Notes under the pieces: generated by a model | Databases searched by the model: none | What the model was told of the DNA's origin: nothing | The model's input: the letters and a program-made list of their open reading frames with translations, nothing else | Position numbers and translations under genes: made by a program | Shown: positions 9,421 through 64,000 of the stretch, piece by piece | How positions within the stretch are numbered: position 1 is the first letter of the stretch | How the letters are laid out: every line of letters begins with the position of its first letter | Assembly (NCBI GenBank): GCA_905178155.1 | Contig: CAJINV010000013.1 | Coordinates: forward strand, 3,220,158 to 3,284,157 | Direction of reading: 5' to 3' | Length of the DNA stretch: 64,000 nt | Origin: Amoebophrya sp. A120 | Taxonomy: Eukaryota > Protista > Dinoflagellata

Positions 9421-9947
9421 TGGCTCATCCTGCGACCGCCTCTAGCAGTATCTATTGGCTTTAACCCGTCGGGGCGGAGAAGAAGAAGTGTTCGTCTTTC
9501 GTCCTTCCAGTACGTAGGTAATATCATGATGTCACGACCGGGCCTCCCTTTTGGTCTTGCAGTGCTTCGCGTATCGTTTCTAAAGATAAACACAGCGATC
9601 GGCGTCGAGGGTGTGTTGTGGACCGAGCGGCACTTTTTTGCATTTGATTTATTCTGTTCCTTTTGTGGTTACTTGTTGTTTGCGCTGCTCATCGCAGGAG
9701 AGGCTTCTGATCTTCACCGTTGTTTTGTTACCAGCAGGTGGCGGGCGGACCTGCAGCTGAGTTACGATGAAAGGTATGTCGCATACAGTTCATCATGGGC
9801 ATAATCCGACCCACTGCCGGCACCACCTTACTCATGGTGTGCTATAGCTCTACTTCCTGGTAGAAACTGGAGCGGAGACTGGTTAGCGCGGCACCTACAA
9901 GATCTTCGGACCACGCGAGCTTCTCCTTCTGGAAGAATTGATTCGTC

Positions 9948-15793: not shown

Positions 15794-18700
15794 ATGTTGG
15801 AACAGCTCCACTTGAAAACGGCCAAGATGGAAAAGAAAAACCAGGATTACTTGAACTATGACCCCGTCACCGGGGAGAATTTCCACTACGACCGCACCGG
15901 GATAAAACACCGCTACGTCATGACCGAGCCCTTGCCGAAGTCCGTTCACCGCGGAGTCACACTTTTCCACGCGAAGGCAATTTGTACTTCTTCTCATGCC
16001 GAAGAACAAGCCGGAGGAACAACTTCTTGTTCTACTTACAACAGGACGGCCACGTCGACCAGGACTACAACCACTTGCACTTCTTCTGAAGACCCGCTCG
16101 TCCTCGTCCCTGATCAAGAGGTAACCGTGAAAGTTCGAGCGAAAAAATCGTTCGCGACGAAAGATACGCACGACAGCTGGGTGGTGAATATGAACGCGTT
16201 TTTGTCGAAGCAGTACTACAGTCCCTACATTGCGCAAATCATCGAGATCATCTACGACGACGAAAATTACTACATGATCATGGAAAGAGTCAAAGGTGTC
16301 GACATGTGGACGTACCTGAACGGTATTTTGACCAACGCCGTTGCTGCACAGAACACGACGAGTAACATGAATCCAGATAAAAATCCAAATATCAACATAA
16401 CTACTGGTGCAGCAACAATCACGGGCGGCTGCACCAACAGCACTACAACTTCCTCCAATCAACATCTCCACATCCGGACCAGCTACTTGGAAGAGATCAA
16501 ATACTATTTGCTCCAAGCGTCGCTCGCGTTGCGGGATTTGTACGAGCAGGGATTTTACCACAAGGATGTGAAGATGGAAAACATGGTGATTGCGAATTTC
16601 GAGATGACAACAGTGGATCTTCTGCAGCAGAATGTTAATATCATGCAGAATTCGACGTCCATTATTAACTCGAAACCCCGCCTGAAGCTGATCGACTTTG
16701 ACACGTGCGAATGCGTCGAGAACTGTTTCGAACCCTACTGGGTTCTCGGAACCGACCACTACATCGCGCCGGAGGTGTATGGAAGTGCCAGAATCGAAAT
16801 CGACAAAATCGAAAAATTTGCGATGCACAAAATCGATGTCAGTTGGAGCCTCAGTTTCCAAGTGGCGCATGACAAATTTCGGGGGAACCCACATCCAGTC
16901 CTCTGTCATGCTGTTTGGGCAAAGAAGACTGCTCCTCCTGTCATGCTACTCTGGCAGCACATTGCATACCCCTAAACAGGCTTGCAATCGGCCTCATTTG
17001 CCTGCTCCCCAATACAGGCCTTCAGTGCCCTACATTTTATGCATCACAAATTTTTTGATTTTATCGATTTCGATCCTGACACACCCATAAGGTGTACCGT
17101 GGGTTCTACTCGAATGCTTCGGAAGTCTTGTCCATCGGCACGATATTGTACCGCTTGCTGCTGAACCAACTCCCCTTCCCAAGGTCGATTTACAGCGAGG
17201 AGAAGCCGGGGGACAATTTTGTCAACTCGGACAAAGGGAAGAGGATCAGCGCGAAAATGAGGAAGTTTTTACTGTACGACGAGTTTCTCGGGAACGGGGA
17301 GACGAAAATTTCGCAGAAGTACGGAGGAATTTGTCTCAAGTTCCTCCGAAAGTGTCTCGCGGTGGAGAAATTTGTGAACGCGACGGAGCAGAGACAGGCG
17401 CGGAACAAGTGGACGCGGTTGAGCATTTTGCAACTTCCGGAAGAGTATCAAATGTAAAAATGTCTGGGTCTGGAAGAATGCATGTTTGTCATGCTTGTCT
17501 GGCATGACTCTTAAATCTGTCATGCACGTTGCCCAAGAGCTCCATTTTTCTGTGATGCAAGAACGCAGTTTGTCATGCAGAATAGGCAACACCTAGAAGC
17601 TCAGAATCTTGTCATGCTGAGCCAGCATTTGTGGCCTCATCATGAGACGCCACCCAGCATCACAAGTTTCCAGACCCAGACACTTTTACATTTGATAAAG
17701 AGGAGTTTTTCGATTCCGTGCGAAATAGCGTCGTCGCGGACTACTTGCGGGATTGGAAGGGGGATTTTGAAAAGGCAGCGTTCCAGAAGCGGTTTACGTA
17801 TCATTTCGACAAGACCGACGTGTGTGCGAGGGGGAAACTGACGGTGCGGGTCGGGGAGGGTGTGTACCCGGCGTGTATAAACGCGGACAAGGGGAGTGTA
17901 CTTATCTATTGATAATGGCTTTGTGTGTTTGAGATATGCTAGTAACACCAGGTTCTGATCATGATGAAGATAACACTTTAACACAATCGACGCATGACGA
18001 AAGCCAATAAAAAAACGAAATCTTCAATCCATTGCAGGACCTGAAACCCGTGGTGCTAAAATCGATTCTGCAGCAAGAAGCACCGGGTAGCTCTTGGATG
18101 CCAGGTGGTGGAGGCCTGCATCAAGACAGAGGACGAGATCATGATAAAAGAGAAAGCAGTCGCTGGAACAGCGCGAACAATGAGTACTTTACCAAATCCG
18201 GTGTGCCCCTTCTACACGGGTACGAAGACATTCATGATGTTCCAGCCCACCACGACGACCGCGGTGACCGCAGAAGTAGTTCTTTCCACAACAGGAGGAT
18301 TTCATCTTCTGACGCGTCGTCTGGTTGCTACAAGGAGCAGCTGCTACTGCATTTCCCACCACGCGTGAGCGGGGCCGGGACCACAAATGATAAGCACAGG
18401 AGGTCGAAACAAGAAATAGACAACCGCGCGAACACTAAAGCTACAATAGAAACAGATTTGACGATGACCACAAATGACGGTGGAAGGCCATCGTTTGACG
18501 ATTTCGATTTCGACCACAGTAGGAGTCGGATCTCGACGAAGACAAGGACGACGAAAGTAGCGGGCTTTGACGAGGATGATCGCGACGTGGTTTTTGCGCG
18601 AAATTACAACGAACATCTTCACGTAGACCAAGTAAAATACCAATCCTCCCCGTGCTCCACGTCGCAACAAGACGAAATTACTTTTGACGAAGACGAATTT

Positions 18701-19540
18701 TTCTACGCCAATAACATCAACGCATGGAATAATCAGCAGGAGGATCGGCATCGTTCTTTCAACAGCAACAACGTGCCCTGCTTTCCCCCACCACCTGCTC
18801 CGATGCAACCACAGCACGGCGGAGCTCCTTCTTGGAACAACGCCGCGGCGGTTTTACCCCCTACGTTCCAAGAACTGGGGGCACAACTTCACCAAACTCC
18901 CGGAGCAAGAAGGGAAAATGCGGCGGCAGAACAACTCGATAACATTTTTGACTCCGCCATGCAGAGTCTGAGTTGCAGACAAGAACACAATAATCATGAT
19001 GCAGAACGGCAACACCAGCAAGAACAGTCGCAGTTCTACTACGATCAGGTTCTGACCTGCAATGTGAATGGGCCACCAGTTAGCGAGCTGACCGCGGGTT
19101 TGGTGTTTTCCCATAAGAAAAGCGGGAAGAACAAAGACAACTCTACCTGTGGCACCACGACGAGCAAGGGGTTTTATACGATGAACCTCCCCCACAGCTA
19201 CACAGCGAACAGCATTTCGACGCCGAACAAGGGGAAGTACAGTGCAAAGAAGGGCGGAAAGAATAAAGGAAAGGGGAAGGGAGGAAAACCTCACTGGAAA
19301 AAGAAACAGTACTATCATCAGAACAACAGTTTTCATCACAATTTTTACCAGGGCAGCGGACAAAACAACAGCTACAGTCACAAGAAAGGAGCATCAGCGG
19401 ATTATTTCTTCGGTTCGAAGGCCGCGGGTAATATCGAAGGAAAGATCTTACGCGGCGAGGAACAAACCTTCAAATCGAGTCCTTGCCCGAGGATCTTCGG
19501 GACAAATGATGATGACTACAAATGCGTGGCGGCTGCGTGA
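15794..19540 (+). CDS. Divergent CAMK-like kinase with DFD motif (exons ~15794-16774, 17092-17444, 17702-17897, 18038-19540), interrupted by two introners
   Basis: HKDVKMEN, LKLIDFD, GTDHYIAPEVY|RGFYSNASEVLSIGTILY after element removal. Confidence 0.8.
16778..17089. mobile_element. TIR introner (TATGG...CCATA), 312 bp, TSD AGGTG
   Basis: ~55-bp imperfect inverted repeats (gaatcgaaatcgacaaaatcgaaaaatttg / caaattttttgattttatcgatttcgatc). AGGTG at 16773-16777 and 17090-17094. Removal restores APEVYRG. Confidence 0.92.
17446..17697. mobile_element. TIR introner family A (TATCAAATGTAAAAATGTCTGGGTCTGGAA), 252 bp, TSD AAGAG
   Basis: 30-bp TIR with 1 mismatch. AAGAG at 17441-17445 and 17698-17702. 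Removal restores LPEEEFFDSV; no local in-frame GT-AG pair found. Confidence 0.93.
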
Positions 19541-25841: not shown

Positions 25842-28817
25842 ATGGGTTCCTATCTCTCAAGCCCGGTGACGCACAAGGAGATGTGCGGGGGCGAATCGCG
25901 AGAAAACCCCTTCGTTATGCAGATGAGAAAGAATCACATAAGAGAGCAAATTAGTCTTCCTATTCCTTTGCTTGAAAGGGCCGTAGCTTTGTCGAAAGCC
26001 AAACAAAGAAGCGCGATGAATCAATTCTCGCTGTTGAGTCTCAATTACGCTAAAGCGAATCCCAATGCGTGCTGGGTGTGGCTGTGAAAAGGCTAATTCC
26101 GCTGTGTGTGATTTTTTCACTTCCATCAGAGTCGGGGAAGTGGCAGGGTGTATGATGCAAGGTTGGAGAAAAACGATGGAGGACGCCCACATCTTATGGC
26201 AAGAAAACATTAGTTTAGTCGGTGGCCGCGCATGCGTTGCAGAAGTTCATTGGATGCGGGTTTTTTTTCGCAATGATGTGACTTTCCTCAACTTTGATTG
26301 TGATTGAGATGTGAATTTCAAAATTTCTCCCAGGAGAACTACCAGGGGATAATATGTAGCGAAGCTGCACGTGCACGCCATGCATGGACAACCACCTCAT
26401 TTTGCCTTCCATACTTTTGCCTGCCGGACCTCACAGCCTTCTCCCATCCTGTTCTAGACGAGGTAGCGAACAGCTTCTAACTTTTCTTCTTTTTTCCCGT
26501 GGCTAGTGGCAGTGCTACGTACCGGTGTAGCGAAATTTTGCGCGCGAGGATGTTACGAAGTAGATTTTCGAAGACCAGCGATGAATTTCAATTTTTCATC
26601 CGAAAAACAGGTCGGCATCGGGGACGGCAAAGACGGCGCAGCCGGTGGAGCGAAAAAAGGCCTGGAGCACAGGATACAGGACCAGTGGAAGGGACACAGT
26701 CTCTTTGCCGTTTTCGACGGGCACGGCGGTGCGGATGTGGCGAAATTCTGCGCCAGCTGCGTCCCGATGATGCTGTTGCGAAAAGACATGGAGATGACCA
26801 CCTCGTCGTCCGGGGCCTCCAAGGGCGATTGTAGCGGTGCTAAGCTCGAATCCTTACTTGTGGATGTGCACCACAGATTAGACGACTTGCTCAGGGATGA
26901 CAAGTACGGTTCACGTTTTTTGCGAACACGACAAAATCATTGATTTGAGGTTGCGCACCGTGCTTTCTTTCATCGTGTAATTAGCATGCCGATGCGTTAT
27001 AAAAACTACGTGCATAAAGTAAGATAAAAAAAGCTTGTTCTCGTCCTATCAGGTACTGTCGCGCCCTCGTCCCCACCGCTTCCAATGGGAACGGGGCCGC
27101 CGGGAATGGCAGCGGGGACTCGCCCAATGGTAGAACGACGCCAGGAGGCGCCACAGGACCAAACGGGCCCGCGCTGTCCCTTCTCCAGCAATCCTTGCAG
27201 AAGGACCTGGCCGGGGCGAAAGCGAAAGGGTCGCTGTCGACCGGACAAGCGACGAATGTGATGGTCAAGATGATGCTGTTGCAGCAGATGACAGGCGGGG
27301 GGAAAGGCGGAGGGATGACAGGAGGTGGGCCGGGAAACAAGAGGAATTTGGAATTAGACGACGACATTTTTAGCACAGAGGACGACGACATGAACAGTGG
27401 GTCATCATCCAGCAGTTCCTCAGGGCTGAAACCCGCAGAGCTTTTGCAGGATTTGTGGGAGAGTAAAAGCAACTCGAGCACGGCAACGAGCTCCACCTCG
27501 GCCTCTTCTAGTTCCTCCAAAACGACAGACAAGGACAAAATTACCGGAAAAATCACGGACGGAACAGCAGCCGATCCAGATCGCGCCTGCACCTCCCGGT
27601 CGCAATCGCACCCGACAGCCGGGCTGGGTGGCGTGATGAGTGGCGGGCTTTTAGCAGGCCACGACCGATTCGGTGGCGGGCCCCCGCCAGCAGCGTGTAT
27701 AGCGAGGCTGATGGGCTGCACCGCGGTGCAGGCACTGGTGACTCCGGAGGGAAAGGTACTTGATTGATAGTAAAAAAGTGCAGATAAAACATGATCATGC
27801 CACTTTTGTACATGCAGTTTTGCATAGATACGCGGCAAATTGACTTCTTTCATTCTCTTTGTAAGCCACCTAAAAATTAAACGTTCTATACAGGTCATTG
27901 TCGCAAACGCCGGTGACAGTCGGTGCGTAGTTTGCCAGCGAGACGGTCACGCGCACGCCCTTTCCCACGACCACAAACCGGACCAACAGCGCGAACAGAA
28001 CCGCATTCACGCCGCCGGCGGGCGGGTCGAGGTCTGCAAGCCGTTAGCGGCGGGCGGAAGGACCCACCATCGCGTGAATGGAAACCTCAACCTGTCCCGA
28101 GCGATAGGCGATCTGGAGTACAAACAAAGACAGGACTTGCCCCCAGATCAACAGGTATACATAGCTGCTAGAGAACTTTATTTTGATAATGCTGACAGAA
28201 GATTGATCAGAATCAGATTCAAATGTGAACAACAACAATTTTCAAGTCCGCTAAGTGTAAGTAATTTTCTCGTTGATTCCCCCTTACAACATCAGATAAT
28301 CTGCTCCACACCGGACATCATCACCTATGACATTGCACCGGGCGACGACTTTCTGATTCTCGCCTGCGACGGCGTGTGGGACATGATGACCAACCAGGAG
28401 GCCTGCGACTTCGTCCGCACGAGGTTAAAAAAGGGCTCCGCGCTGAAACAGATCTGCGCGGACCTGCTGGACGCCTGCCTAGCCGACGACCCGCGGAAAC
28501 AAGGCGGTTTGGGCGGGGACAACACCACGGTGCTGCTGGTCAAGCTGAAGTACAGCTTCGAGGCCCGGAACAACAAGGGCGTGAAGAAAAACGCGGGGAA
28601 CTACGGGCTGAGTGACGAAGAAAACATGACAGCAAATAGTACAGGCATTTTTACCATGGCGGTCGACGAGGGCGGGAATGATTTGAAGTCCCTCGCGGAG
28701 TTGAGGAATCCCAGCTCGCAGTCGACCAACAGCAACACGCAGGACAGCACAAACTCCGCCGCGTCCTTATCCTCGAGCAGTAGTGGCAGAGACCTGGTGC
28801 AGATTGCGTTTTCGTAG
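25842..28817 (+). CDS. PP2C/PPM phosphatase (PPM1G-like, N-myristoylation MG); exons ~25842-25913, 26134-26217, 26611-26903, 27053-27755, 27894-28154, 28296-28817
   Basis: MGSYLSSP, MQGWRKTMEDAH, VFDGHGG, GCTA, VANAGDSR, DHKP, RVNGNLNLSRAIGD, LACDGVWD, GGDNTT. Confidence 0.92.
25915..26129. mobile_element. Degenerate introner forming PP2C intron 1 (predicted GT...TC, 25914-26133)
   Basis: Eroded inverted repeat (tatgcagatgagaaagaatcaca vs tgtgattttttcacttccatca), partial TSD CTTCG/AGTCG. Removal gives ENPF|GEVAGCMMQGWR. Confidence 0.5.
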
Positions 28818-46369: not shown

Positions 46370-49300
46370 ATGAAGGCCATCGAGCCTGATCCACCCGGCA
46401 GCATGCAGCTAGCCACACTACAACCAGGCTCGCAGCCTGGTGTAGTCCAGGGTGTGGTGGCCAAGCCGAAAAAATCCAAGCTCGCGACTTTGCAGAGCGC
46501 CACGTCGATCAAAGAGATAACCGACCTGATTATGGTACCGGAATGCGGACCGCAAGAGATAGCGCTGCTGAAGGTGGTGTGCTTCGGGCTGATACTGTAC
46601 CTCGCCTGTCTGATCCCGGTCATCATCATGTCCTGCGTGACCACGAAGACCTGCGACGTGGGGGACGTGCTGGGCCCGACGGATTACTGCAAAGAGTATG
46701 GGCCGGGGGAGAACCCCATACTCACCGGCGGGGACATCTGCACCGTTGTTTGCGGTAAAATAAGTAGGAAACTTTGATGAAGATAGAGATACTGATAGGT
46801 TGAGCAGTGATCTACTTAAACTTCAATTTTGATTTTACATTGCAATATTATGCAGTCGATGTTTATTGTTATTGAGACGTTCTGTTTTTTTTCACTCAGA
46901 TAAAAAACGAAAACCCAACAAAAGAAATAGAATCTTGTAATTGTTCCAACGCACCATGACTACAGGCGGCAAGGAGGCAAATCGGCGGTACTACGAGCCG
47001 GTGCTCGAGTGCAGCGACGGCAACCTGGAGGACGCCGACACGGGCACGGCGGTGGCTTCCGTGTGTGCGATGCTGCCGCTTTCGCTGACGGAACTGTCGG
47101 AGGACGAGGCGATGGCAGCGTTTGCGGAGGCAAACAAGCCGGGGAACGTGCTTTTGACCGGGAAGTGCGTGGGCGCCACCGAACGGGAGATCCCCAACAT
47201 TAACGCCGTATGGGATTCTCAAACGTTACATTCTCAACTGTTACATGATTTGTCATGCAAAACTACCATCGTAATCCATTAACGCTGGACCGCACGGCCC
47301 AGAAATGATTTCAAAACAATTTCAAACTACTTTCAAACTGTGGGGCTTTTCAAAAATCAAAGCTCCAATGGCGCGGCCTGCGTGCTAGAAGGCGCTGCGG
47401 TTTGGTCTTGATGTTTCGGCGCATTTGCTTCTTTTTCGCCCAGTTCAGACCGCTGCGGGCTGAATCCAGCGGAGGAGCTAGTGCGCCACTGTGTGCGTTG
47501 GGTCGCGCCGAAGTGCGTGGCAATATACTTGGGCCGAAATACGGCTCTCGTCGTTGGCCAACTCTACATTGCCCGCGGGTCGTAACTCCGATCCGAACGG
47601 CCACAGGATAGACTCGCAGCGTCCATGTGACGCTGGGTTTCTCGGCTTCGTTAGGTGGGCGCCTGCGAGCACCGCAGTCTGTTGCATGGGTTCCTCCCCT
47701 GCCCCTTTTTTCGTCGCAAGGCAAGCCAAAAAGCGCCCTGCGACCGTCAGAAGCAGACGTTGCGCCCGGAGGGCAGCATCGCCGAGGGAAGCAAGCGCGG
47801 CGGGCTTCGGGATGGGCTCTGAAGAACCAGCGCGCGGGCGACTTGCCGGGGAAAATTCCTCGTCTTGGTGTTGCAGTGGTCCGCGCGCCTGCTCGTAGGT
47901 CGCGAGGCTACCTGAGACGGACGGGAAGAGGACGCAGACGGGGCCGCGGCGGGGATAGTCTCCCTCGCGGCTCTGCGCTACGTAGTCAACGTCGCGCCGT
48001 GAAGGCGAAGGGCCGCCTGGAGCATGCGGCATCCTTCCTGCAGCGCGTGGCCGCTCTTCGGAGCAAATTTGCGACGCCCGACAGGACAAGGAGGAAAGCC
48101 GGAGGGGGTGGGCCCCTGGTTCAGTAAACTCCATCGGGCGGCGACACCCGCTGGGCAAAGAAAGAAAAATAGGGCTTGGGCACATTCCAAATAATATCAT
48201 CAAGGCATTTCAAAACGCCATCAGAATTCTGTCAGAATTCCGTTCCCCGATGGGTAGCTTGGTTCTGACGGAATTCTGACGGAATCTGACGGAATTCTGA
48301 CGGCATTTTGAATATCGTCTTGATGACGTTTTGAAATTGGCCAAAATGCTTGATGACGTTTTGAAATTGCGCAGGAGGCTTGATGGGATTTTGAAAGCGA
48401 GCGAGATGGCCGATGGCGTTTTGAAATCAGCGAAGGGCATTGATGGGCTTCGGAATTTCCGAAGGGCAGCCGTCGGCAATTCGGTGGGGCCTCGCGTACC
48501 GGTGTGCGAAGCGGTCCATCGGGCAGGGGCGTGCAGCTCTTCGCCCGTGTCGATGCCGATTGCCGCGAAGCCCCGCAGCCCACTGATTGCCAACGAGCCG
48601 CGCCGCCGGGCCCTTGGCGCAGGCACTACCTGCCGGCGCCGGTATTCTTGGGAGAGGTGCCGCGCCTGCCCGATTCGTATCGCCCGTGCCGATCGGGGGT
48701 GGGCGTGGGCGCCCCGTGTCTTGCTGCCCATGGCGCAGTGTCTATGCCTGTATGGGGTTGCCAAACCGGGGCGGCAGCCAGGCGCCCGGCGCCCATTATT
48801 TGATTGTGGCGCCCCTGCGTGCGGCAGGTTTGCTCCGCCAGTGTAAATCGCTCGGGCCCATCGCGTACTGTCACATGTTGCAAAGGCCGGCGCCGCTCCG
48901 GGTGTGGGGCTCCGTGTGGAAAGGCCACACCAGACGCGCGGGCCCCGACATTCATGGCCGCGGGCGGCCCGTCGTTAGGCCCGCCAGCTCTTTGGCGGGC
49001 TTTTGGCATTCCCGTTGCAGTCAAGTTTGTGGGGCTGTATGCAATGAAAAATCGCACACCGCGGAGGCCCGCGGGGTTGCCACAGCATGAAAATGCTGGA
49101 ATTTTGAAATTGCTTTGAAATTGGTTTGAATTAGAATTACAGCCCGCGCAGTCTAGAGTTAAAATCCACAAGATCAAGCTGCTTCGCATGACAAATTTGC
49201 GAAGGGCTAAAGAGCACCTAAATCTGCGCGGGATTTGTAATGCAATTTCTGCAATTTTCCCCCTTTCACTGTTGCGGTTCTTGCATTACAAATTCATGTA

Positions 49301-52300
49301 ACAATTGAGAATGTAACGTTTGAGAACGCCATACGCCGCCCAACCGTGTTTGGAGGGCAAGTTCATTTCCCCAGTATCAAATGTAAAAATGTCTGGGTCT
49401 GGAAGAATGCGAGATTTATCATGCACGTTTTGCATGAGCCATGATGTCTGTGATGCATACCCTAGCAATACAGATTTTTTGCAGGCTTCTTGATGCCTAT
49501 TCCGCATGACAAATGCCTTCTCAGCGTAGGAATGCAAAAATGTCTAGGTCTGGAAAGTTGTGATGCTGGGTGGCGTATCACGAAGAGGCCACAGGTGCTG
49601 GCTCAGCATGACAATTTTCTGAGCTTCTAGGTGTTGCCTATTCTGCATGACAAACTGCGTTTCTGCATCGCGCTGTGTTCAGATTAGCTTTTAGCTTGCT
49701 GCTTTAGATCACCTTCCGTTTTCTCTTTTTTCATCGACACAGATGCAGGTTGAAGATCGATTTGTATGACGGCAGGAGCTTCAAGTAGAAGATCACTAGG
49801 GTTTACTCATCGGGGAGATAACCTCGTACAAAATCGGCACCCTTTTTTTTACTTTCTTTTACCACTTTCCTAGCGCTATAAGCTCCTGCCGGGGTCTGGT
49901 CGAGAAGGCAGACCGAGATCAGCGGATCCGTTTCTTTTTGTTCCTCCAGTGTGGAGCGGCAGCACCATCGTGGTGCTTTTTTTCCCCGCGACGCGATCGC
50001 TGGATCCTAGTAGCGCTAGACCCCTTTTCGCAGGCGCTCCTAAAGTGAGCCTTTTGCCGGTGCTGGCGCACTAAAAAAGAACCTCGAGACGGGGAAAAGC
50101 AGAAGCACGAAAGAGAAGACGGAGGCGGGGCACAGAAGAAAAGGGGAGTGGGGCATTAGGGAAAAAGAAGAGAAAAAAAGACGAGCGGGGGGGAAGGACT
50201 AAAGAACAAAAAAAAGAGCTGCAACTGTCTGGGAGTTTGCATGTCGAAGTCGTTCGGACTAGGTTTATTACCAAAGTGGCGCCAGGGATGCTAATTTAAA
50301 GACTGCGCTAAGGCAGCGCCCCCCTTCCCCAAGGGGTCCCCCCGGGGCGGGCGCGGTGGCGGCTCTGCAAGCGCGGAGCTCCGCGGGCCGATTCTCTGAA
50401 AACGCATACAAAAGGGTGCGGGAAGCAGATCGGTAAGAAGTGTTTGAAAGGGGCACGCCGTTGGGTCGTCCGCCATCGTGATAGGATCGCCGTGTCTGAT
50501 CATTGGACCCCCTGTATATTTTTTAGCGCGCAACCGGTCACAGAAGTAAGTCTTTGAGCAAGTTTGTAAGACTAACCCATCAAGGCAATACTGGAGCTCC
50601 ACCTTGCTCGCGGGCTTGGATGGTAAGGCAGGTCAGCCACACATAGCGCCCACTGGTTGTAGCCATGCGTAAGCAATCGATAGCGGTTTTGCAGGTGCAG
50701 CCGGGTGGTAGTTAGGAAGTGGGCCGCGTCTCCACCTAGGGGTATCGGCAGAGGCTAAATCTGTTCTAACGCCCAGGTATTGGCAGAGGCTAAATCTGTT
50801 CCAACGCCCACCCGCCAGGAGTTAAATGGTACTACTACTACTACTACCAGCGTAGCAAAAATTGCATTCCCTACTTTGGTACTCATGCAATACAGATTTT
50901 TTTGGAATCCAAATGCAGCATCACAAGTTCCATTCTTCCAGACCCAGACATTTTTACATTTGATACCCGGGGAAAAAGTGCAACGTGAACTGCAAGTCGG
51001 GGTACTTTCCCACCGTGGAATCGCAGGAGTGCCGCCGCCCGGAAATGCTGCTACAGCCGGTGCACACCACCATCCAGTGCCTCGTCCAGTCGGAGCTCAA
51101 CGCCTGGCGCGCGGAGATGCGCGCCCGCCCCTGCTTCCGCGACCAGCACTGCAACGGGAAGGGCGTGGCCATCCGGAACCAGGTGACTCTGGAGTGCAAC
51201 TGCGCCTGCGAGCCGCCCTTCGTGGGGCTGACCTGCGAACACGAGGTGCGGGAGTGCCTGCTGCCCGAGATCGAGAACGCGGGCAAGCCGCCCTGCCAGG
51301 AGGGCTGGACCACCTACGTCCGCGGGCCCACCTGCACCGTCGTGTGCGCGCAGGACTACTTTCCCGCCATCCCGGTGCTGCGGTGCACGGGGTCCAACCT
51401 GGTCCCGGCCACCGGCGAGTGCCGCGGGGGCCCCATGCCCCCGACGGTCTGCGTCGTGGCCACCTTGTCGCTCTCCGGCCTGTACGTGTTCTTCGTCGTG
51501 GTCGTGTACGGCCTGTACTTTTGGCGCAACTGGCGCGTGAAGCGGGACCTGACCAAGATTTACGCCGGCGACCCGAAGTGCACCATGGTCGCGGAGGAAA
51601 ACCACTTTTCCGGGGGGCAGACCAACGTGCTGAAGCCGTCGCAGACCGCGAAGCAGTACCAAAAGTCGAAGCGGGAACGGATGCCCATCCACCGGACCAA
51701 CGAGTTTGGGGAAGTGGAGGTGGGCGGCGCGGAGAAGCTGGACTACGGCTCCAAGTCGGAGGAGCAGACGCGGCGGGAACTGCACAAGTTGTCCGAGTTG
51801 GCGGACTTGTCCCGGCAGAACGCGCTGCAGAAGGACATTCCGTTGGTGGAATCCGCCTACATGTCGGCGTACGAGGGCTTTCTGGTGGAGGAGAACTACG
51901 AATCCGCAAGTAAGCTGGTGCGGGAGGGGTACCTTTTAGAAGCTATACATTGCAAAAATGTCCGTGTCTGGAAGGTTGCTCCTGAGGTTTGTGATGCTGT
52001 GTCTGCTTGACACGGAAGGTGTGCCATGCAAGGCCTAGCATCACAGGTTTTGAGACGGTTTCCCAATGCTAAATCCGCATGACAAAAACCTTCGTTCGGC
52101 GACAGGAAAAGGAGCGCCTTTTGCTGTCTAAGCATGACAGATTTTTGTGTGATCCAAGTATGCAGCACAAGTTCGCATCCTTCCAGACCCAGACATTTTT
52201 GCATTTGATAGAAGCAGAGTTAGACCAACTGGAAGAGGAGCGTCTCGTGGACGACGTCTTGCGGGAGAAAGAAAAACAAGCAGCGTTGGAGTTTGACGCG

Positions 52301-54337
52301 AGGAATCCGGTGTTCCAGGTGGAAGACCACGAAGACCCCGACACGCTGCTCCTCATGGCACCGACGGACCAAAGGTAAGCACGACTTTAAAACAAAGTCG
52401 CACTTCGTTCATCGACGTGTCGCGGGCTAGGAGTTGGTTAGACGTGAAAATGGCATGGCTGAATGAAAAAGCATTGCGTCGTGATAAGTAGATTGCCAAC
52501 CAGCATTCCTAAACAGTGAACACCATTCGCAAGTTTTCGCGAAAATAAAAAGGTGCAAAAATCAGCATACGCTGAATAAGGTAAGGACGAAAAAAAAAAA
52601 ACTGGCTGCTAAAATAATTTCAGGTACGCCGTCGACCATTCCGGGCTCCCGATTCGCGACCCACTGACTGGTGGCACCGATCTCCGATACCAGGCGCCGC
52701 TCGTGGAGAACGCCGAGGTCCCGTCGCTCGCGGAGCAGGCGGACTGGGTAAACGAGTTCAACAAGTGCGACAACGAGACGAAATCCACAAAGCTGCAGAA
52801 GGAGGCCGTGCTAGAAATATTAGAGCGCTACGAGAACGGGAAGTGCGACTTTCTATCGATCCCGCAATTGGAGGCCGCGAAGGACGTGTTGGAGCGGGCG
52901 AAAGCGATCGCCGACGCGGTGGACTGCTGGCCGCTGAACAAACGATGCCGAGGGATGATGAAACGCGTCGCGGAGCTGAAACAAGTGCAGCAGGAGCAGC
53001 TAGACGAGAAGGTCGACCTGTTGATGCGCTCCGTCGCGTCAAAGAACCCGGAACAAATCGAAGCAGCCATCGAGGAAACTATGTTTCTGAAGGAGCAGTA
53101 CCCAGTATCCGGGGTGAATTCTTGTTGCGAAGCCGAACTGGTCAAGTTGCCAAACTTGTCGCGCGGATGAGATTATAAATGCATCTGTTCCATGAAAACA
53201 TTTTTCTCATTGACAAGCACAATGAGAATGACCACAAGTTTGCAAGCTGCGCCGAGGCGGCCGGCACAAGTTTTCATTGCATATCCTGCGCTAATTGGAC
53301 GATGGCACATGGTCGCGCAAGAAGTGGTTACCGACGTGATAAGGGTACTGCAGTAGCTGTTTTCATATATGATTTCTGAGAAAATAAAGCACCCGTGATG
53401 CCATGCTAATGCATGGCGCAAAAATCGATATCGCTCATGATCGATCAGGTGAGTAGACGTAGAGACTACGTACTTCGACGTCCAAGGAAGCGGTAGTACC
53501 GTTGTACTAGAAGTTCCACAAAAATTCCACATGTCTTAAAACAACTTACTTCTGCAGAAAGCGGCAAAGAAGAAGTCCCAGGAAGAGAAAGAGGTGAAGA
53601 AGATGATGGGGCTCATTGCGGATTACGACATTGGTCCGAAGGAGATCGTCCAGGCCGTCAAAGAGAAAGACGTTCCCAAGCTTCGCGCCGGTTTGAACGT
53701 TATGCATATGGAAGAGTCTGTCACTTGTACTTATTGCCTCTTGAACTTTGACAACAAAGAAGTCAAGTGAGGATCCGCGCACCACAAGTTGAAAATATAA
53801 TGTCACCTACTTCATTTTTCACCATATTAGAATTTGCATTTTTATTCGTCTTCTTGTTCTTCATCTTCTTCTTCCACGCAAGAGGTACATACTAGTAGCA
53901 GACTTTTGCACATTTTCATACTGGCCTTCGTCTCGCCAAACACGCGGGATCCGGACACGGGGATGACATTGCTCCACCTAGCTGCGATTAACTTCGATCA
54001 GCAGGTTTTTCTCCTCTTAATCAAGAAGAAGGCGGACGTGAACCTGTTGACGTCCCCGGACTGCCACGACGTGTGGGACCTGGCCAGCAGCTACGTGCGC
54101 GGGTTCATGAAGCACAAACTGAAGCTGAAGGTGCCCACCGACCGGGTTTTCCTAGAGGACGACGAGGCCACGGTGAACTCCATGCTGATGTCTGCGGGGA
54201 GAAGTAGTGGCGGAGCAGCCGAGAGCAGCAGCAAGTCGCCGAGAAGGGGCGGTGGAGCATCCTCTTCATCTGCAGCAAAGTCTACCTCATCCCCCACAAA
54301 CGCAGGAGCCGGAAACAAGGGCAGCGCGGCAAAGTAG
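46370..54337 (+). CDS. Two-TM protein with Cys-rich sushi/CCP-like and EGF-like loop and C-terminal ankyrin repeat (exons ~46370-46754, 46966-47207, 49338-49373, 50970-51942, 52215-52374, 52624-53104, 53558-53690, ~53925-54337)
   Basis: TM VVCFGLILYLACLIPVIIM; repeats C..VC...Y.P..LEC..GNL; EGF CNGKG...CNCACEPPFVGLTCE; TM VATLSLSGLYVFFVVVVYGLYFW; ankyrin GMTLLHLAA...LLLIKKKADVN. Continuous frame only after introner removal. Confidence 0.78.
47283..49158. mobile_element. piggyBac-like non-autonomous or degenerate DNA transposon with TTAA TSD, GC-rich interior
   Basis: TTAA at 47279-47282 and 49159-49162; imperfect TIRs CGCTGGACCGCACGG / CTCTAGACTGCGCGG followed by repeated TTTCAAA motifs at both ends. 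Confidence 0.75.
48266..48460. repeat. Internal tandem repeats: ~11-bp TGACGGAATTC units, then ~30-bp TGATGACGTTTTGAAA units
   Basis: Directly visible periodicity; partial inverted copy at ~48205-48245. Confidence 0.8.
49375..50965. mobile_element. Family A introner with perfect 35-bp TIR, TSD CCCAG/CCCGG, expanded to 1591 bp by a nested insert
   Basis: TATCAAATGTAAAAATGTCTGGGTCTGGAAGAATG matches its reverse complement ending at 50965. Removal gives KFISP|GKKCNVNC. Confidence 0.92.
49530..50847 (+). mobile_element. Putative retroposed (non-LTR-type) insert with 8-bp TSD CAGCGTAG and (TAC)n tail
   Basis: CAGCGTAG at 49522-49529 and 50848-50855; (TAC)6 at 50830-50847; 35-bp tandem duplication at ~50741-50810. 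Removing it leaves a 265-bp host, the size of other family A copies. Confidence 0.65.
51944..52210. mobile_element. Family A introner, 267 bp, TSD GAAGC
   Basis: TATACATTGCAAAAATGTCCGTGTCTGGAAGG / CCTTCCAGACCCAGACATTTTTGCATTTGATA; GAAGC at 51939-51943 and 52211-52215. Removal gives GYLLEA|ELDQLEE. Confidence 0.92.
53692..53920. mobile_element. Possible highly degenerate introner before the ankyrin exon
   Basis: Eroded inverted repeat (tatgcatatggaagagtctg vs cagacttttgcacattttcata); TSD not recognisable. GT(53691)...53924 excision is in frame. Confidence 0.35.
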
Positions 54338-55403: not shown

Positions 55404-56973
55404 ATGCCGGGCCGCGCAGTATCCTCGACTCTGTTGCCGCCTCGGAAGCCGTTCCGCCTATGGACGTCGACCGGGGTAGTTGCTTTTTACGCACTCCTGA
55501 TCGCCAATAGTGCCGATGGTTTGAGCCGCTTACACCGGAGACCGAGCACTTCTAGTAAAAAAGAACAAGGGGACGACGCAGATGAAGCGGCTGGCACAAG
55601 AACTTCAACTGCAGTCGCCGGCGTAGTTGAAGGTAGCTGCGAGCCAAACAGCGCTGGGGATGCTGCACCTTTATCTGCAGATGATGACACTGGAGGAGAG
55701 CGCCATCAGGTGAGGCCCGCTACTTGTGATGGAGAAGTAAGATCGAAATATCGGCAAGTGGAAATTGGGCACCAACACCAGCAGTCAGATCAAGCAGGTG
55801 GTCCCAACCAACGTGAACGGGCGTTGCGACACTGCAAGAACCTCGGGTCAAACTTGGCGCAGATGCTTCAGAAGGAAATCAATCATCCGAGTTCTACTTG
55901 GCAGCAAGCGGCGCGAGGAAAGAGGAACAACGACGCGGTCACTGCTGCTGTATGGAACGGAAAACTGCTAGTCTGTGCGAGCAGAGGAACAAATTGTAGA
56001 CAGACAGGCACCACCGCTTGTCATGCATAAAGTATGCCGTGCCTCTAGTGCCTACGATTCATTATAGATGGCCTTGCACAGGGACCAACAGCAACACCAA
56101 GCTGCTCCTCAAGATTGCATGACAGGAACAATGAAGATGAACGAGAGCGACGCACATAGATCTTCATGATTTGTCCAACTAAAAAAAAAGCTACAACAAC
56201 TCGCTCGCAGCACAGATACCATTATTTCCACTTGATACAATCTAGTCTCCGCCGCGCAGTCCTTCATTCGAACTTGCGGACCAAACGCTGGCTCCACCAT
56301 CTCGGTCGTAATCCGCGATGTTCCTGTTAAACAAATGCCAGACCCCCGACATCCCCACAAGTTTTCCACGAAGCACCTCTACTCCTTCACTTTCACCGTC
56401 CTCGGCTACGCGGTATACCGGGAAAGCCGAGCGGTGGTGAGCACGCTGCTGAGCGCGGCGGGGAACTCCCGGCTGCCGATCGACCTGACGGGTGTGGTAG
56501 AAACACTTGACGTTCTTGATCGGAGCGCCACGGGGATTGGTGGCGGTGGAGATGATAACGATGGTCTATCATCTCCTGTGCCGTCGGCTTCCCCTACTTC
56601 CCTTCGAGGCAAAACGGTGGAAAGGATGAGGATTCGGAATTACTACGCACAGGTGGTGCTCTTCGTGTGGCACACGCTGCGGAAGGAAGTAAGCTACAAG
56701 ACTGCGCCGGTTACACCTACATCTTCCCGTTTGGGTGGAAAAGTACAAGAGAATCGAATCAACTTCGTCCAGCAAGTGGTGTATTTCGATGTTCAGACCT
56801 ACCACAATGGACGGTCCGTGCTTGTAAGCGGGACACAAGTCCACAAAGTCCCCCTTGACCTCCTGTATCAAAATCGTGGCGAGGACGAGGTGGCCGAGCC
56901 CTCAAGCAGAAAGACGAACACGATTGCCGGTCGTCGTGGTCCTGCTATAAGCGGGCGAGCGGCCGACTTGTGA
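55404..56973 (+). CDS. Hypothetical secreted protein (exons ~55404-55949, 56242-56973)
   Basis: Signal-like GVVAFYALLIANSADG; two ORFs joined in frame across a TIR element. Confidence 0.5.
55951..56237. mobile_element. Degenerate TIR introner (TATGG...TGATA)
   Basis: tatggaacggaaaactgctagtctgtgcgagc vs reverse complement of the right end tatcaagtggaaataatggtatctgtgctgcgagc; internal TGTCATGC/GCATGACA motifs; TSD diverged. Confidence 0.55.
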
Positions 56974-58111: not shown

Positions 58112-61100
58112 ATGGCCATCTGTGATGGCAGCGAGATCGCCTTGTCGGCCAATGCCCTCAGCCCTGCCGGAACCCGGTGGCGTCGTTTTTTTTCCGCGCT
58201 GCGGTTGTGGGCGTGGTACCCTCGACACGGCGAGCTGGAGCTGCGTAGGGAAGATTTAGTGCAGCCAGCGCTGGAGCATGTGGAGCATGCGAGCTCCTTT
58301 TCCAGTGCAACAGCCGTTGTGGATCATAAAAGACCTGCGAGGAATTCTGCAGAAGCAGGAGAACCTGAACCGCCCAACACGACCTCCTGCCCTCTGGGAA
58401 CCTTCGCGAGCCAGCTGTTTCTCGCTGCGGTCTCTAACGCGAACGATCCGAGTGTCACTGACTTTTTGACGGATCCAAACTCCTTCTTCCTGGCGTGGCA
58501 GGCAGTGGAAGCGCAGCAGCAGCATGGAGATCCGGGGCAGGCTACAAGTGCTGCACAAGTTCTTGTACTGGAAGGTGTCAAAGCTGCCGATAGCAGTAAG
58601 GAACGACCTGGGAGGCATGCTAAAAATGAAGGAGCTTCTACCACTTCAGAATCCCCACCTTCGTCCTCCTCCCCGTCATCTCTCGTCGACACCCTGCTGA
58701 CCCGATTTCCGGAAGACAAAAGCCTTATCCCGTGGGCGCCACTCTTCCGAGCGTTGGCAGCGCCGATAGTCGACATACTGGAGCTGCGCGATCATGACGC
58801 TGCTAGTAGTGCTCCTGATTCAGCATTTGATGAACAGCTACAGCAGACAACGCTCGCGACCGCGATTTTCTCCGGGTACCTGTGCCCAGAGGTAGAATAT
58901 ATACCCAACGATATACCCAAACCTGCGTATTTAGATTTGGTCGGTTTATTGAAAATTCCTCGATAAGTATTGAATCGTCACTCTTATCTATCCCACGAAA
59001 AAAGTGTATACAGTTACACACTTGTAGTGAATTTAGCAATGCAAATTTCTCTGCACGAGAGAGAAAACCTGCAATGCAGAAATCCTACAGGAAAATACAT
59101 ACGAAATTAGGCTCCTATGTATATCCGGCATGACAGAGCTTGTCTGTCTTGCTTGGCCTGCAACGCAATGTGTAATTGTGCAACTTTTTTTGTGCGATAT
59201 TATCCAACTCGTCGGCCCTGCTGGTAAAACGACTCAAAAACAGCAGAGCGGAGTGGTGGAATTTGCATGCTTCTTCGTCTTTGAAGGAGTTGATAAAGAC
59301 GAAAGCTTCCGCATTGAAGCGTCCCGAGGTCGCGCGCGCCTTTTCAGCTAGACGGCAACGACGGAGAACATGATGAAAACGCCGTGGCTGTTCCGAACAG
59401 CCACAGGCTTTTCGTCGCGAATGTTGTCCGTTTCTGGCAACGGCCGAACCTCCTCGGCCGCTGCCAGAAACGTGAAAAAGCGCGCTGAGAAAATTAAATT
59501 TAGCAGGTTGGGTGTTTTGACCCAACCTGCACAAACCTGCGGCGCAGGTTGGGTCAAAACACCCAACATCCTAAATTTAATTTTCTCGGCGCGCTTTTTC
59601 ACAAAATAAAATTTTCGCAACATGTTGTCCCTCAGCTGAAAATCGCAAAAAAAATCAGAATGCCCCCAAAACAAATTAACCTCCGCGCCGCGGTTCCGCC
59701 TTCGGGCCCCGCTTCTTCTTGGCCCGGGTGCCTTAGGGGTAGGCCCCCCACGTCATATTCCGACTGCCCGCGCGCTATGGTGTGTGTGTGGAGGCTGCTT
59801 GGGTTTTTCTGTGTTGTTTCACCAGGCCAGAGATGGCTACTTGATTTCATTTTTGGAACCCTTCCGGTGTTGATTGTTTTCATTTTTCGGATTAGAAATT
59901 GTCTTCCGACTTTGATTGAGACACGCAGGGAACTGATAGCTCAGCGAATGGTTGTGCCCTGGCGGTCGTGTCAGCGATGCGAGAAACTTCGTTGGCACTG
60001 AGGTGGGGAGGGGATTTGGAGGGTGTGGCGTATGTTCATATAGGTGGCGTTTCATATCAATATCTATTGAGGATTTTTCAATATTTCGAGCAAATGCAAA
60101 TACGCATGTTTGGCGAATAGTGGATCCATAGCTCGCTTCCGCAATCTTCTCCGGGTACCTGTGTCCAGAGGTAGAACTGGCAGCTCTAGGTGGTGAAATA
60201 AGCCAGCAGGAACGAGCTGAATTACAGAATTCGCATCACCATCACGTGCCAGCAAATAGAAGATACGGTGCCGGTGGCGCAGAGGAGTCGGAGTCCGTGA
60301 CTGAACTCTTCGGGAACGCTGACTACGCGTCACGCGGAGCGAAATTGTGTGCGAGAGCAAAGGCAATCGCAAATGATGTGCAGGACGATGAAATTGGTGA
60401 CGTCGGCCGCTCCAACGTAGTACCGGAACAAAAGACAGCGACTGACGCGAAAACGCAGCCTGTAGCTTCCCCATCAGTTGCCGCCCCGTCGGCGCAAACG
60501 CTTCTGCTCGACTGGATGGAACAGATCGGGGATGTTAGGAATCTTGTCTCGCGCTCTGCAGCCTTTTCAACAGGGAATGAAAGAAATGATGCAGCGCACG
60601 AAGAACAAAGGCACAGAACTCGACCAACAGGTGCAGGTCAACCTGTGCTCCCAGCTGCAAGTAGCTTGCAAAATACGCCGTATTGCTACGCAGCGTCGGA
60701 CTTTCTCGTCGATCACGAGAAGAAGTCATCTTTGTCCGGTTCTACACCAACTCGGGACCGGCACTCGGAAGCAGTAGAAGTTTCCGACAATGAATCACCT
60801 GACGAAGGCTCATTTGCGTTTGAATTTTCCGAGACAATGCGACAACGGTGGTCGGCAGGCGTGGCGACTCGACGAGAGGAACGGGACAAAGAAGCGGAAG
60901 GTGGTGGCAAAGCTACCACGACCCCGCTCATTCCGCAGGGCCCCGCGGTAGACAGCGGAGTGCTGCCCTGCGAGGCGCAATTTTTTCTGGAGAGTGTCCG
61001 GGACCAAAACTGCAACGTCATAGTCGAAACGGGCATTTTCCAGGGCAGCAGCACCGAGTACTGGTGTCAATATTTTGAAGGAGCAGGGGAAAATCCTCAA

Positions 61101-61727: not shown

Positions 61728-63271
61728 GGCAGAGAGCAACTCTTCTGAGGTACGTAGGTTTTTTTTTTCGGTTGATGCCATGCCTCGATTGGGAGCTGCT
61801 AGTATGTCAATGTCAATCCCCTGGGAAAAATCCTTCATGGCGTCGGCGGCACATGAAGAGTGTGTGATGGGTCGACCTCGACTTTTATTGCATGAGCAGA
61901 AAAAACAGCTCTTTCTTGTATACCGAGGGATCTTCGCGGAGCAGCTTCTTCCAAGTCAATATATTCTCAACGGTCGTGTACAACTAGGAATTCTAGTGCA
62001 AGAAAGTCAGTCACATTCTCACGTGTCACAAGAAAGGGTGTCTCTGCGTCTACTTCCATAGTCCGAGAAGAGTCGACATCCGACGAGATTTACAGAAGAC
62101 GGTCCTGGCAACCACGTTGTGGGTATTATGTACCCAGCGGAGAAGTAGTCGGATGAGCATGAAGCTGCAAGAACTACAAGACGAGAAGTTTTTTTATCAG
62201 CAGGAGATCACGACGTAGTGTATTTTAATATAGGTTCCTGTCATAGATTTCGCACAATTTCAACTTGTTGTACGAATCGCGGGATCTTTCTACGTTCGCA
62301 CGATGAACAAACATCAGAAACGCATAAACTGTTAGTTCTTGTTATCCAGCCGTCAAGAAGTATGCACTTCTCGCAGGTCTTGTTGTGATTCTTGACATGA
62401 TGATGACAAGATGAACTGGTGCTAGATCATCCGAAAACACACGAGTATGTTCTTTCGCGCGATACGAAACATCAAAGAGAAAGACTAACACACGGAAAAC
62501 GAAAAACGACACGAAACTATAACAGAGAGCAACAGGAGCCGCATTGCATTGACGTGCGTTTTTTTTTCCTTCATCTCAACAGCGACCTGAGGAGAGGAAA
62601 GAGAACAAGAGCAAGAGAGTAAGTAGACATAGTTTCAGTAGAATCGCCATTACATGAAAAGTGCTACTGTGCAGGGAGTTGCACAACGATAGCTGCCCGA
62701 CAGAGGGCATGACTGTCAGAGACCTTTAGGTGCTAGTGTGATCACATGTGATTGAAGTTTTGTTTTTCTGGTCCTGCCAAATAATTGGACGAGGCAGGGA
62801 CGGCGATATCGACGTGATTTAGCTTGACTTTATACAGTGCCACACACTGCATTCCTTTGAATGCTTTTATTCCAGATCCCTCAGAAAAATTTGCTTAAGC
62901 GCACCTATTGCGTCCGTTTATCAATTCAATTACTTACTCCCGCTATTTTTATTGTCGAAAAGGACAGCGAGTACTTCTTGCTATTTGTATTTGATGCAGC
63001 AGCCACTTTTATTTCAGTGTATGATATTAAAAAAGTTGAAAAGAAGTGAACACCGAGACGGCAATAAAGCTGAAAAGCGATCTTTACGGTGCCTTTTCCT
63101 ACGGGATGCACTAGTAGACCGTGCATCATCAGAGAAGCACGGGAAAGAAATTTCACTTTGATGTAGTTCCAATTTGTGTAGTTTGTTGCTTGAGGTAGTT
63201 GAGCTTGAAGCTTGTATCGGGGCTGCTTCAACATCTCCTTGTGAAGTTTAGTGCAGGACAAGGCTGCAAAA

Positions 63272-63919
63272 ATGGTTGGTTGTTGCGGGGCCACGTCGCC
63301 AAGCAAGCTGAGGATGGATGGGGAAGGCGAAGCGGCAAAGACCCCGACCACACCGGATGAGAAGAAGAAACAGGACGACGACAAAAAAGGCGTGACCTTC
63401 GACAAGGACGTAGTGTACCGGGACTCTGCCGCACCCCCACTGCAAGCCGGGATGTCCTCCCCAGATCGGGGAAGATACAGCCAGACACGGCCAAAAGCGA
63501 TACCTCAGTTCGAGACCGGGCCGGCACCAAGGCCAGCCGACGAAGTGCTGAACAACGACGAAACGGCCATCATAGTAGTGGACTTTCAGCACGATTTCAT
63601 GGGTATCCACATGGCAAAAGAGTCGCATGAAGATATTACGCACCACTGCGATAGCAGTACTGTGCTTGAAGTCGAGACGTTCTTCTTGCTTCTTTGTCGA
63701 CATTATAGACGCATCATTTAACGACACATGAAACAAAAATTTGTATTTTCAAGTTGTAGCTTTTAATTTCGCTTTATGCGGTTGCGGTGCGTCGATATTA
63801 TTCCCGATTCTTTTGCAGCGGATAAGTAAAGGGGGCAATCTAGCCGTCAGCGGCGCGGATTATGGAAAATACAAGGATGACGTCGTCGCCTTTGTTGAGA
63901 AATGCAGGGGGAAGGGAAG
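63272..63919 (+). CDS. Nicotinamidase/isochorismatase-family cysteine hydrolase, 5' part (continues past the window)
   Basis: AIIVVDFQHDFM|EGGNLAV resembles the PncA motif; a further GT donor follows at ~63920. Confidence 0.75.
63604..63824. mobile_element. Older TIR introner (TATCC...GGATA), 221 bp
   Basis: tatccacatggcaaaagagtcg...acgcacc vs reverse complement of the right end tatccgctgcaaaagaatcg...acgcacc. Confidence 0.8.
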
Positions 63920-64000
63920 GTAGATTTCTCTAGTATTAGCCGATTCGAGACTGCCTTCGATTCTACTTCTCTTGTTTACGTGTATTGAAACAAGTGTGTG

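What the first reader, a model, noticed from the sequence alone, without database searches (positions are those of the whole stretch)
16773..63831. TAT...ATA introners appear to be spliced in a fixed register set by the TIR stem (-1/+4), not by GT-AG
Seen: elements with different TIR sequences nearly all begin TAT and end ATA and sit inside exons. Cutting 1 nt before the left TIR and 4 nt after the right TIR restores the frame at 17445-17701 (GT..GA), 47208-49337 (GT..CC), 49374-50969 (GT..CG), 51943-52214 (CT..AG), 55950-56241 (GT..AT), 63603-63828 (GT..TA), and more weakly 25914-26133 (GT..TC) and 53691-53924 (GT..GG). Where the TSD is intact, any register within it gives the same product, so only the TSD-diverged copies (55951, 63604, 53692) are informative. 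The base before the left TIR is G in nearly all cases, giving a GT donor, while acceptors vary freely. Established: Amoebophrya-type genomes have many non-canonical IR/DR introners, and euglenids have structure-defined non-conventional introns. Inference: the 3' splice site is positioned by the geometry of the TIR hairpin, and left TSD copies are selected toward G.
Basis: partly seen in the sequence, partly recalled or inferred. Interest (0 to 1): 0.85.

Follow-up and report, generated by a model that had tools for sequence, protein, structure and literature searches.

The report
Transposon introns cut by fixed ruler
In a likely Amoebophrya-type marine parasite, nine small jumping elements inside genes are missing from transcript assemblies in a way that fits a single cut rule (one base before their TAT start, four bases after their ATA end) rather than the usual GT-AG rule, which would let them land almost anywhere in a gene without leaving a scar.

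Summary
The core observation holds. Transcript-like contigs join across 9 TAT...ATA elements in the window. Each skip is the element plus 5 nt, none can be read as GT-AG, and -1/+4 is the only register shared by all nine (unique at 63603-63828).

Two inferences fail or weaken. G before the left TIR is not required: 26194 has no GT option, and in 120 related copies G is at background (38/120 against 0.309). A rigid hairpin ruler is doubtful: the predicted inner helix shifts by -4 to +2 nt between elements while the cut follows the terminal triplets. Copies lie in both orientations within predicted genes (14:12), so the signal is likely in the symmetric ends.

These match published Amoebophrya A120 introners, whose borders were described as variable or unknown; I found no paper stating the fixed register. 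It works like euglenid nonconventional introns but is not one. The scan earlier noted single hairpin-bounded introns in other genomes, not this rule. The enzyme is unknown; a modified spliceosome is my best guess.

The parts
16777..17093 (+). Predicted introner intron in a protein-kinase gene; TIR 16778-17089, intact TSD AGGTG; a GT-AG reading at -3/+2 gives the same product, so uninformative
   Evidence: no RNA joint among rows shown
17445..17701 (+). Predicted introner intron (GT..GA) in the same kinase gene; TIR 17446-17697, intact TSD AAGAG; high-copy family
   Evidence: (very high DNA depth); no RNA joint among rows shown
25915..26131 (+). Introner intron in a PP2C gene (corrected from 25914-26133); TAT 25916, right end ATC 26125-26127; TSD TTCGT/AGAGT; -1/+4 reads TT..AG, -2/+3 and 0/+5 give the same mRNA
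26194..26417 (+).
47208..49337 (+). Long introner intron (2130 nt), TIR 47209-49333, intact TSD CGCCG; register ambiguous, no GT-AG reading; no Pfam match in its ORFs
49374..50969 (+). Long introner intron (1596 nt), TIR 49375-50965, TSD CCCAG/CCCGG; -1/+4 (GT..CG) or 0/+5
51943..52214 (+). Introner intron (272 nt), TIR 51944-52210, intact TSD GAAGC; CT..AG under -1/+4; no GT available
53105..53287 (+).
53700..53924 (+). Introner intron (corrected from 53691-53924); TIR 53701-53920, TSD AACGT/CTGGC; -1/+4 (TT..GG) or -2/+3 (GT..TG)
55950..56241 (+). Introner intron (292 nt); TIR 55951-56237, TSD TGCTG/CAATC; -1/+4 (GT..AT) or -2/+3 (TG..AA)
63603..63828 (+). Introner intron (226 nt) with a unique register; TIR 63604-63824, TSD ATGGG/AGTAA; GT..TA; AGs at +2 and +7 not used
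58989..59199 (.). TAT...ATA element with intact TSD TTATC nested inside the composite 58898-60130; not exonic, not counted
46755..46965 (+). Canonical GT-AG intron spliced in the same contig (control; likewise 52375-52623, 53345-53557, 26463-26610, 26904-27052, 27756-27893, 28155-28295; all begin GTA and end CAG)

Best explanation
These are non-autonomous TIR transposons with 5-bp target duplications whose removal from transcripts fits one register, 1 nt before the 5' UAU and 4 nt after the 3' AUA; the paired arms likely bring the ends together, and a splicing machine, likely a modified U2-type spliceosome, likely reads the terminal triplets as its ruler. Shown: the skip is element+5 in 9 of 9 joints, and -1/+4 is the only common register. 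Because 1+4 equals the TSD length, exactly one TSD copy is lost and the coding sequence is restored whatever the target sequence. Inferred: since both ends carry the same motif, either orientation works, so no internal branch point or pyrimidine tract in a set orientation is needed. Inferred: N-UAU resembles this genome's canonical GUA donors at +2/+3 with +1 relaxed, while the 3' site ignores AG and is counted from AUA. Not shown: which machine cuts, and whether the triplets are read as sequence or as a short protein-held helix.
For:: nine joints, intersection of allowed left offsets = {-1}; the chance of any common register under independent uniform registers is 0.0017. Canonical introns are spliced in the same contigs, and a DNA-like run keeps 25915 and 26194 unspliced. 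All nine elements carry stops in all three frames; the spliced genes read through (999 aa, 662 aa PP2C). Related loci: 230 of 317 elements have an exact 5-bp TSD. Of 120 oriented coding-site copies only 4 read GT-AG at -1/+4, and 6 of 98 in any register. Orientation relative to window family copies is 14:12 (7:5 in the 17446 family), and strand calls agree in 105 of 105 within-locus pairs. The inner helix is offset while the cut follows the triplets. All nine predominant A120 non-canonical classes in Table S4 of PMC7789003 have T as second base, as -1 before TAT predicts.
Against: Only one joint fixes the register alone; six allow two or three registers and two allow seven or eight. I placed the TIR ends of four elements after seeing the RNA (a DNA-only scan re-found 53701, but its coding model had seen that gene). 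RNA evidence is assembled contigs from two samples of one study, which drop minor isoforms; the raw-read runs did not cover the exons. No RNA covers the 120 related copies, so splicing in both orientations is inferred from open frames, and only 8 of 110 flanks had a Pfam match. No G-U over A-C excess supports selection on RNA pairing. One spliced element ends ATC, so the 3' triplet tolerates change. Mismatches between TSD copies fall toward the junction (10, 6, 4, 3, 1), which a strictly fixed cut does not predict.
Confidence: 0.6

Rival explanations
1. Pure hairpin geometry: the end of the TIR stem positions both cuts and the terminal sequence is only a transposon fingerprint.
For: All seven short validated elements are predicted to pair arm to arm (8.8-24.7 expected pairs against 0-2.3 in six of seven canonical introns, 8.0 in one). 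A 3-5 bp terminal helix can be drawn in most and could be protein-stabilised. In euglenids complementarity rather than sequence is kept (PMC4770533).
Against: Terminal pairs are predicted at p>=0.9 in 2 of 7, about 0.25 in one and <=0.07 in four; inner helix diagonals range from -4 to +2; stem positions 4, 5 and 7 are Watson-Crick in only 75, 68 and 52 of 110 copies; G-U 103 vs A-C 122.
Confidence: 0.2
2. GT-seeking donor with a fixed total: the machine uses a GT at -1 or -2 when there is one and always removes element+5, so the register slides by one base.
For: Seven of nine joints are compatible with a GT donor, two of them only at -2/+3 (25914, 53699). Bases next to the junction are more often identical in the two TSD copies (positions 1+2 vs 4+5: 16 vs 4, p=0.012).
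Against: 26194 and 51943 have no GT at all; only 45 of 98 intact copies offer a GT in any register; no G enrichment at any age class.
Confidence: 0.1
3. Same register, but cut and joined by a non-spliceosomal endonuclease/ligase pathway as proposed for euglenid nonconventional introns, releasing circles.
For: No AG, no +1 G and no oriented internal signal are needed; U1 snRNA was not found in A25 or A120 (PMC7789003); euglenid introns have a fixed paired triplet near the ends and leave as circles (PMC11282704, PMC4770533).
Against: UA at +2/+3 is shared with all seven canonical donors here; A120 keeps nearly all spliceosomal proteins and U2, U4, U5, U6; tunicate transposon-derived non-GT-AG introns are attributed to an altered spliceosome (bioRxiv 2025.08.15.670264). 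None of this tests the pathway.
Confidence: 0.3
4. The joints are reverse-transcriptase template switches across hairpins between direct repeats, or come from an isolate lacking the insertions.
For: Hairpin plus short direct repeat is the known setting for such artefacts (PMC8240250, search listing only). The RNA label of X1, X2 and X4 is a guess by the tool, and no DNA run was laid on 44101-64000.
Against: 63603 has no repeat at the joint; retention would put stops in every frame; the joints share contigs with canonical splices; the exons match the window apart from three places; decayed old elements are removed too.
Confidence: 0.03

Closest known systems
Introner elements (IEs) / non-canonical introns of Amoebophrya sp. 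A120 (Farhat et al. 2021, PMC7789003; read: abstract, passages, section 10, supplement text part 3 and legends S19-S25; figures not visible)
   Same: IR motif starting TAT, seven variable bases, then a run of A; 5-bp direct repeats at the borders; about 240 nt typical; repeated families; RNA-supported non-GT-AG ends such as GT-CG, CT-AG, TT-AG.
   Different: The paper's Fig. [quoted passage not shown] S23 places the IR 1-5 nt from the sites. Here TSD-diverged copies resolve this to one register, -1/+4, and copies lie in both orientations. The S19-S23 images could already show a mode at this offset; I could not see them.
Euglenid nonconventional introns (Milanowski et al. 2016, PMC4770533, passages; review PMC11282704, section 6)
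   Same: MITE-like origin, paired ends, TSD-like repeats, non-canonical junctions, and a conserved triplet pair at a fixed distance from both cuts.
   Different: Triplets are CAG/CTG at +4..+6/-8..-6 with a purine at +1; here TAT/ATA at +2..+4/-7..-5 with any base at +1. Unrelated lineage; circular products untested here.
TIR/TSD introners with canonical sites (Gozashti et al. 2022, PMC9860276, passages; Gozashti et al. 2025, PMC12130899, passages on A120)
   Same: DNA-transposon-derived introns that take splice positions from the TSD and leave the mRNA length unchanged.
   Different: Those carry or co-opt GY and AG dinucleotides; these need neither (4 of 120 read GT-AG).
Fritillaria borealis non-canonical introners (PMC11282704 section 6; bioRxiv 2025.08.15.670264 passages)
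   Same: TIR/TSD elements spliced at non-GT-AG ends in large numbers.
   Different: Their ends follow dominant dinucleotide classes (AG-AC, AG-AT) set by the TIR; here the first base and last four bases are whatever the target site supplied.

Membership tests
Amoebophrya A120-type introner element | Inverted repeats at both intron ends starting TAT, 7 variable nt, then >=3 A | tested here: met
   A at positions 11-14 in 102-117 of 120 ends; 156 of 163 elements found without requiring the triplet have TAT at both ends
Amoebophrya A120-type introner element | 3-5 nt direct repeat overlapping the exon/intron borders | tested here: met
   exact 5-bp TSD in 230 of 317, 4/5 in 42 more
Amoebophrya A120-type introner element | Repeated families, removed from RNA at non-canonical ends | tested here: met
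   9 joints; 150 loci with family copies
Amoebophrya A120-type introner element | No internal transposase gene | tested here: inconclusive
   no Pfam match in 21 ORFs of >=90 aa from the three long elements; remote homology not searched
Canonical U2-type GT-AG intron | GT (or GC) donor | tested here: not met
   26194 allows only TT or TA; no GT near 51943
Canonical U2-type GT-AG intron | AG acceptor | tested here: not met
   no GT..AG placement for any of 9 joints; nearby AGs skipped at 63603
Canonical U2-type GT-AG intron | Lariat with a branch adenosine, spliceosome dependence | not testable with these tools
   Needs lariat sequencing or inhibition
Euglenid nonconventional intron | Stable structure bringing the intron ends together | tested here: met
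   predicted arm-arm pairing in 7 of 7 short validated elements (prediction only)
Euglenid nonconventional intron | Paired CAG/CTG at +4..+6/-8..-6 and a purine at +1 | tested here: not met
   TAT/ATA at +2..+4/-7..-5; +1 is a pyrimidine in 4 of 9
Euglenid nonconventional intron | Excised as full-length circle | not testable with these tools
   Only contigs cover these genes
Non-autonomous TIR DNA transposon (MITE-like) | TIRs, constant-length TSD, dispersed copies in both orientations | tested here: met
Non-autonomous TIR DNA transposon (MITE-like) | Cognate autonomous transposase assigning a superfamily | not tested
   No whole genome is held for this window

The most novel reading that the evidence does not exclude
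A120-type Amoebophrya runs a second splicing code, N-UAU...AUA-NNNN, executed by its own machinery (a U1-free spliceosome variant or a non-spliceosomal ligase). It removes any TAT-ended transposon scar-free in either orientation at any target, so tens of thousands of 'patternless' introns would follow one rule, convergent with euglenids.
Probability: 0.35. Interest if true: 0.85.

Novelty: new variant of a known kind. Interest (0 to 1): 0.62.

Why it matters
The published A120 genome has 65% non-canonical introns reported with no clear splice signature and an unknown mechanism (PMC7789003). A single positional rule explains the spread of dinucleotide classes as target-site bases, would fix gene models for tens of thousands of introns, and names the bases to mutate and the products (lariat or circle) to look for. 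It also explains how a transposon can colonise exons, including RNA polymerase II's largest subunit, without needing host splice signals.

Tried and rejected
No whole genome is held, so the genome-wide tabulation was replaced by 150 related loci, which are biased to young families. No listed holder run is on record as RNA; raw-read runs X8 and X9 laid 126 and 4 reads, almost all on a TIR or an intron, so minor registers could not be counted. Joint rows dropped: 5 of 15 shown rows lying inside long elements with other letters between (paralogous copies), with 14 rows hidden, 9 of 15 rows involving the high-copy 16778/17446 families, with 31 rows hidden. Frame restoration alone was rejected as a test of register (two wrong coordinates passed it). 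Nearest GT-AG was rejected. G selection was tested by age class and rejected; the search for old copies found few (7 outside the window, with 3 and 7 hits in the +4 and +6 controls against 20 at +5). G-U asymmetry test negative. Pfam found no transposase in the long elements. Phase 0 is commonest under -1/+4 (58 of 120) but target preference could explain it, so it is not used. Literature searches found no paper stating the register; Roy et al. 2023 and Henriet et al. 2019 were seen only as cited in reviews. The scan's own notes had nothing on this genome or this rule.
Full report
1. What is in the sequence. The genes examined lie on the + strand. A scan for TAT...ATA pairs with at least 21 of 30 arm identity gives 8 pairs in the window and 0 in each of 5 shuffles. 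The young elements (16778, 17446, 47209, 51944, nested 58989) have exact 5-bp target-site duplications; 49375 has 4 of 5. Older ones have decayed arms and TSDs. The anatomy matches the published description of Amoebophrya sp. A120 introner elements: TAT, seven variable bases, a run of A, and 5-bp direct repeats (PMC7789003). The organism is inferred from this match only.

2. RNA test. Two stretches were laid (44101-64000; 9501-29400). Contigs of runs X1, X2 and X4 (two samples, one study; the RNA label is the tool's guess) splice seven canonical GT-AG introns, so they behave as cDNA. Run X5 behaves as DNA and runs unspliced through 17848-29400. The same contigs join across nine TAT-type elements. 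Every skip equals element+5. Allowed left offsets are: 25916 {-2,-1,0}; 26195 {-1,0}; 47209 and 51944 all (intact TSD); 49375 {-1,0}; 53106 {-1,0}; 53701 {-2,-1}; 55951 {-2,-1}; 63604 {-1}. The intersection is -1, that is -1/+4. Under independent uniform registers a common register arises with probability 0.0017. No joint can be placed as GT..AG. At 63603 an AG at +2 and an in-frame AG at +7 are passed over. All nine elements have stops in all frames, and the spliced genes read through, including a PP2C. Rows dropped and hidden are listed under Tried and rejected. Contigs show only the dominant form.

3. Corrections. With re-placed TIR ends they fit the rule, with T at +1. I placed those ends, and those of the two new introns 26194 and 53105, after seeing the joints; all four have TAT at the expected place and three have ATA (one ATC). 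17445 and 16777 have frame support only.

4. Related copies. A scan with the 17446-family TIR returned 150 loci of one public assembly holding the window's families at up to 96% identity. Of 317 paired elements, 230 have an exact 5-bp TSD and no other length stands out. A codon model oriented 120 of 284 candidates that lie in open frames on both sides. It called + for 11 of 11 window elements with their own gene left out (four by a thin margin), agreed in 105 of 105 within-locus pairs, and 8 of 110 flanks matched Pfam in the predicted frame. G at the -1 position is 38 of 120 against a flank frequency of 0.309, with no trend by TIR decay; the window's 7 of 11 is not general. GT-AG arises in 4 of 120 at -1/+4 and 6 of 98 in any register. 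Copies lie in both orientations: 14:12 against window representatives, and 23:17, 11:7, 4:7, 1:7 within clusters. None of these copies has RNA evidence.

5. Geometry or sequence. All seven short validated elements are predicted to pair arm to arm. But the terminal UAU:AUA pairs are predicted in two only, and the dominant helix is displaced by +2, -4, 0, +2, -2, 0, +2 nt, while the cut stays with the triplets. Positions 4, 5 and 7 of the stem are poorly paired, and G-U does not exceed A-C on the sense strand (103 vs 122). All seven canonical donors begin GTA, sharing +2/+3 with N-TAT, and all nine predominant A120 non-canonical classes have T second (Table S4). So I infer that the arms bring the ends together and the terminal triplets set the cuts. 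Folding of naked RNA cannot exclude a short protein-held terminal helix.

6. Mechanism and odds. Fixed -1/+4 register as the dominant rule: about 0.85. Triplet ruler with arm pairing as a bridge: 0.6, against pure geometry 0.2 and a GT-seeking slide of one base 0.1. Whether the cutter is a modified spliceosome or a euglenid-like pathway is a separate, untested question (about 0.7 to 0.3). An artefact is unlikely (0.03). Against a strictly fixed cut stands the fall of TSD mismatches toward the junction, which I cannot explain.

7. Comparison. The elements meet the tested defining features of A120-type introners. [quoted passage not shown] 3 legend) and place the IR 1-5 nt from the sites (Fig. 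S23 legend); the images were not visible to me and may bear on novelty. The system works like euglenid nonconventional introns, which keep a paired triplet at +4..+6/-8..-6 (PMC4770533), but fails their motif test. It differs from introners that carry or co-opt GY-AG (PMC9860276). Six searches found no statement of the register. Earlier notes of this scan describe single hairpin-bounded introns in other genomes (unchecked) and did not change my reading.

8. Verdict. A real feature: known elements with an apparently unreported positional splicing rule. New variant of a known kind; interest 0.62.

Noticed in passing
window 58852-60176: A 1233-bp TAT...ATA composite (58898-60130, inner TIR about 58917-60113, nested element 58989-59199) is flanked by a 46-bp direct repeat containing AGGT. 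A -1/+4 cut would frameshift; GT 58892 to AG 60131 is in frame with a 13-aa duplication, and removing one whole repeat copy is also in frame. Possibly a canonical intron born by duplication; no RNA joint shown.
   Followed up: partly
L066:3287-4258 and L066-L069: An RNA polymerase II largest-subunit gene (Pfam Rpb1 domains) carries many TAT...ATA elements, including a 972-bp one with intact TSD inside a conserved stretch (conservation recalled).
   Followed up: partly
related loci, 22 TSD-diverged copies: Mismatches between TSD copies fall from position 1 to 5 in sense orientation (10, 6, 4, 3, 1; weaker at a looser strand threshold: 13, 8, 7, 3, 5) and 15 of 24 are at third codon positions. 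Unexplained; may indicate one-base slippage or a role for junction-adjacent identity.
   Followed up: partly
window 50917-50965: Raw RNA run X8 does not cover the exons at 92% likeness but has about 117 reads on this TIR with two differences: the family seems shared with a more distant isolate.
   Followed up: no
window 54292-54315: Both transcript-like runs differ from the window by two substitutions and a 3-base gap: allele, assembly error or editing.
   Followed up: no
window about 1900-3700 and 7700-9450: GC-rich blocks (2-kb bins at 0.64-0.67) between AT-richer genes, without Pfam matches in the ORFs tested, similar in composition to the interior of the 2125-bp element.
   Followed up: no
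window 39352-39893: A 150-bp tandem repeat (3.7 copies) inside a 1303-codon open frame that ends in a CobW domain.
   Followed up: no
L002:1358-1507, L029:1378-1591, window 25916-26127: The outermost base is changed at the 3' end in three copies and at the 5' end in none of the clear cases, a weak hint that U at intron +2 matters more than the last A.
   Followed up: partly
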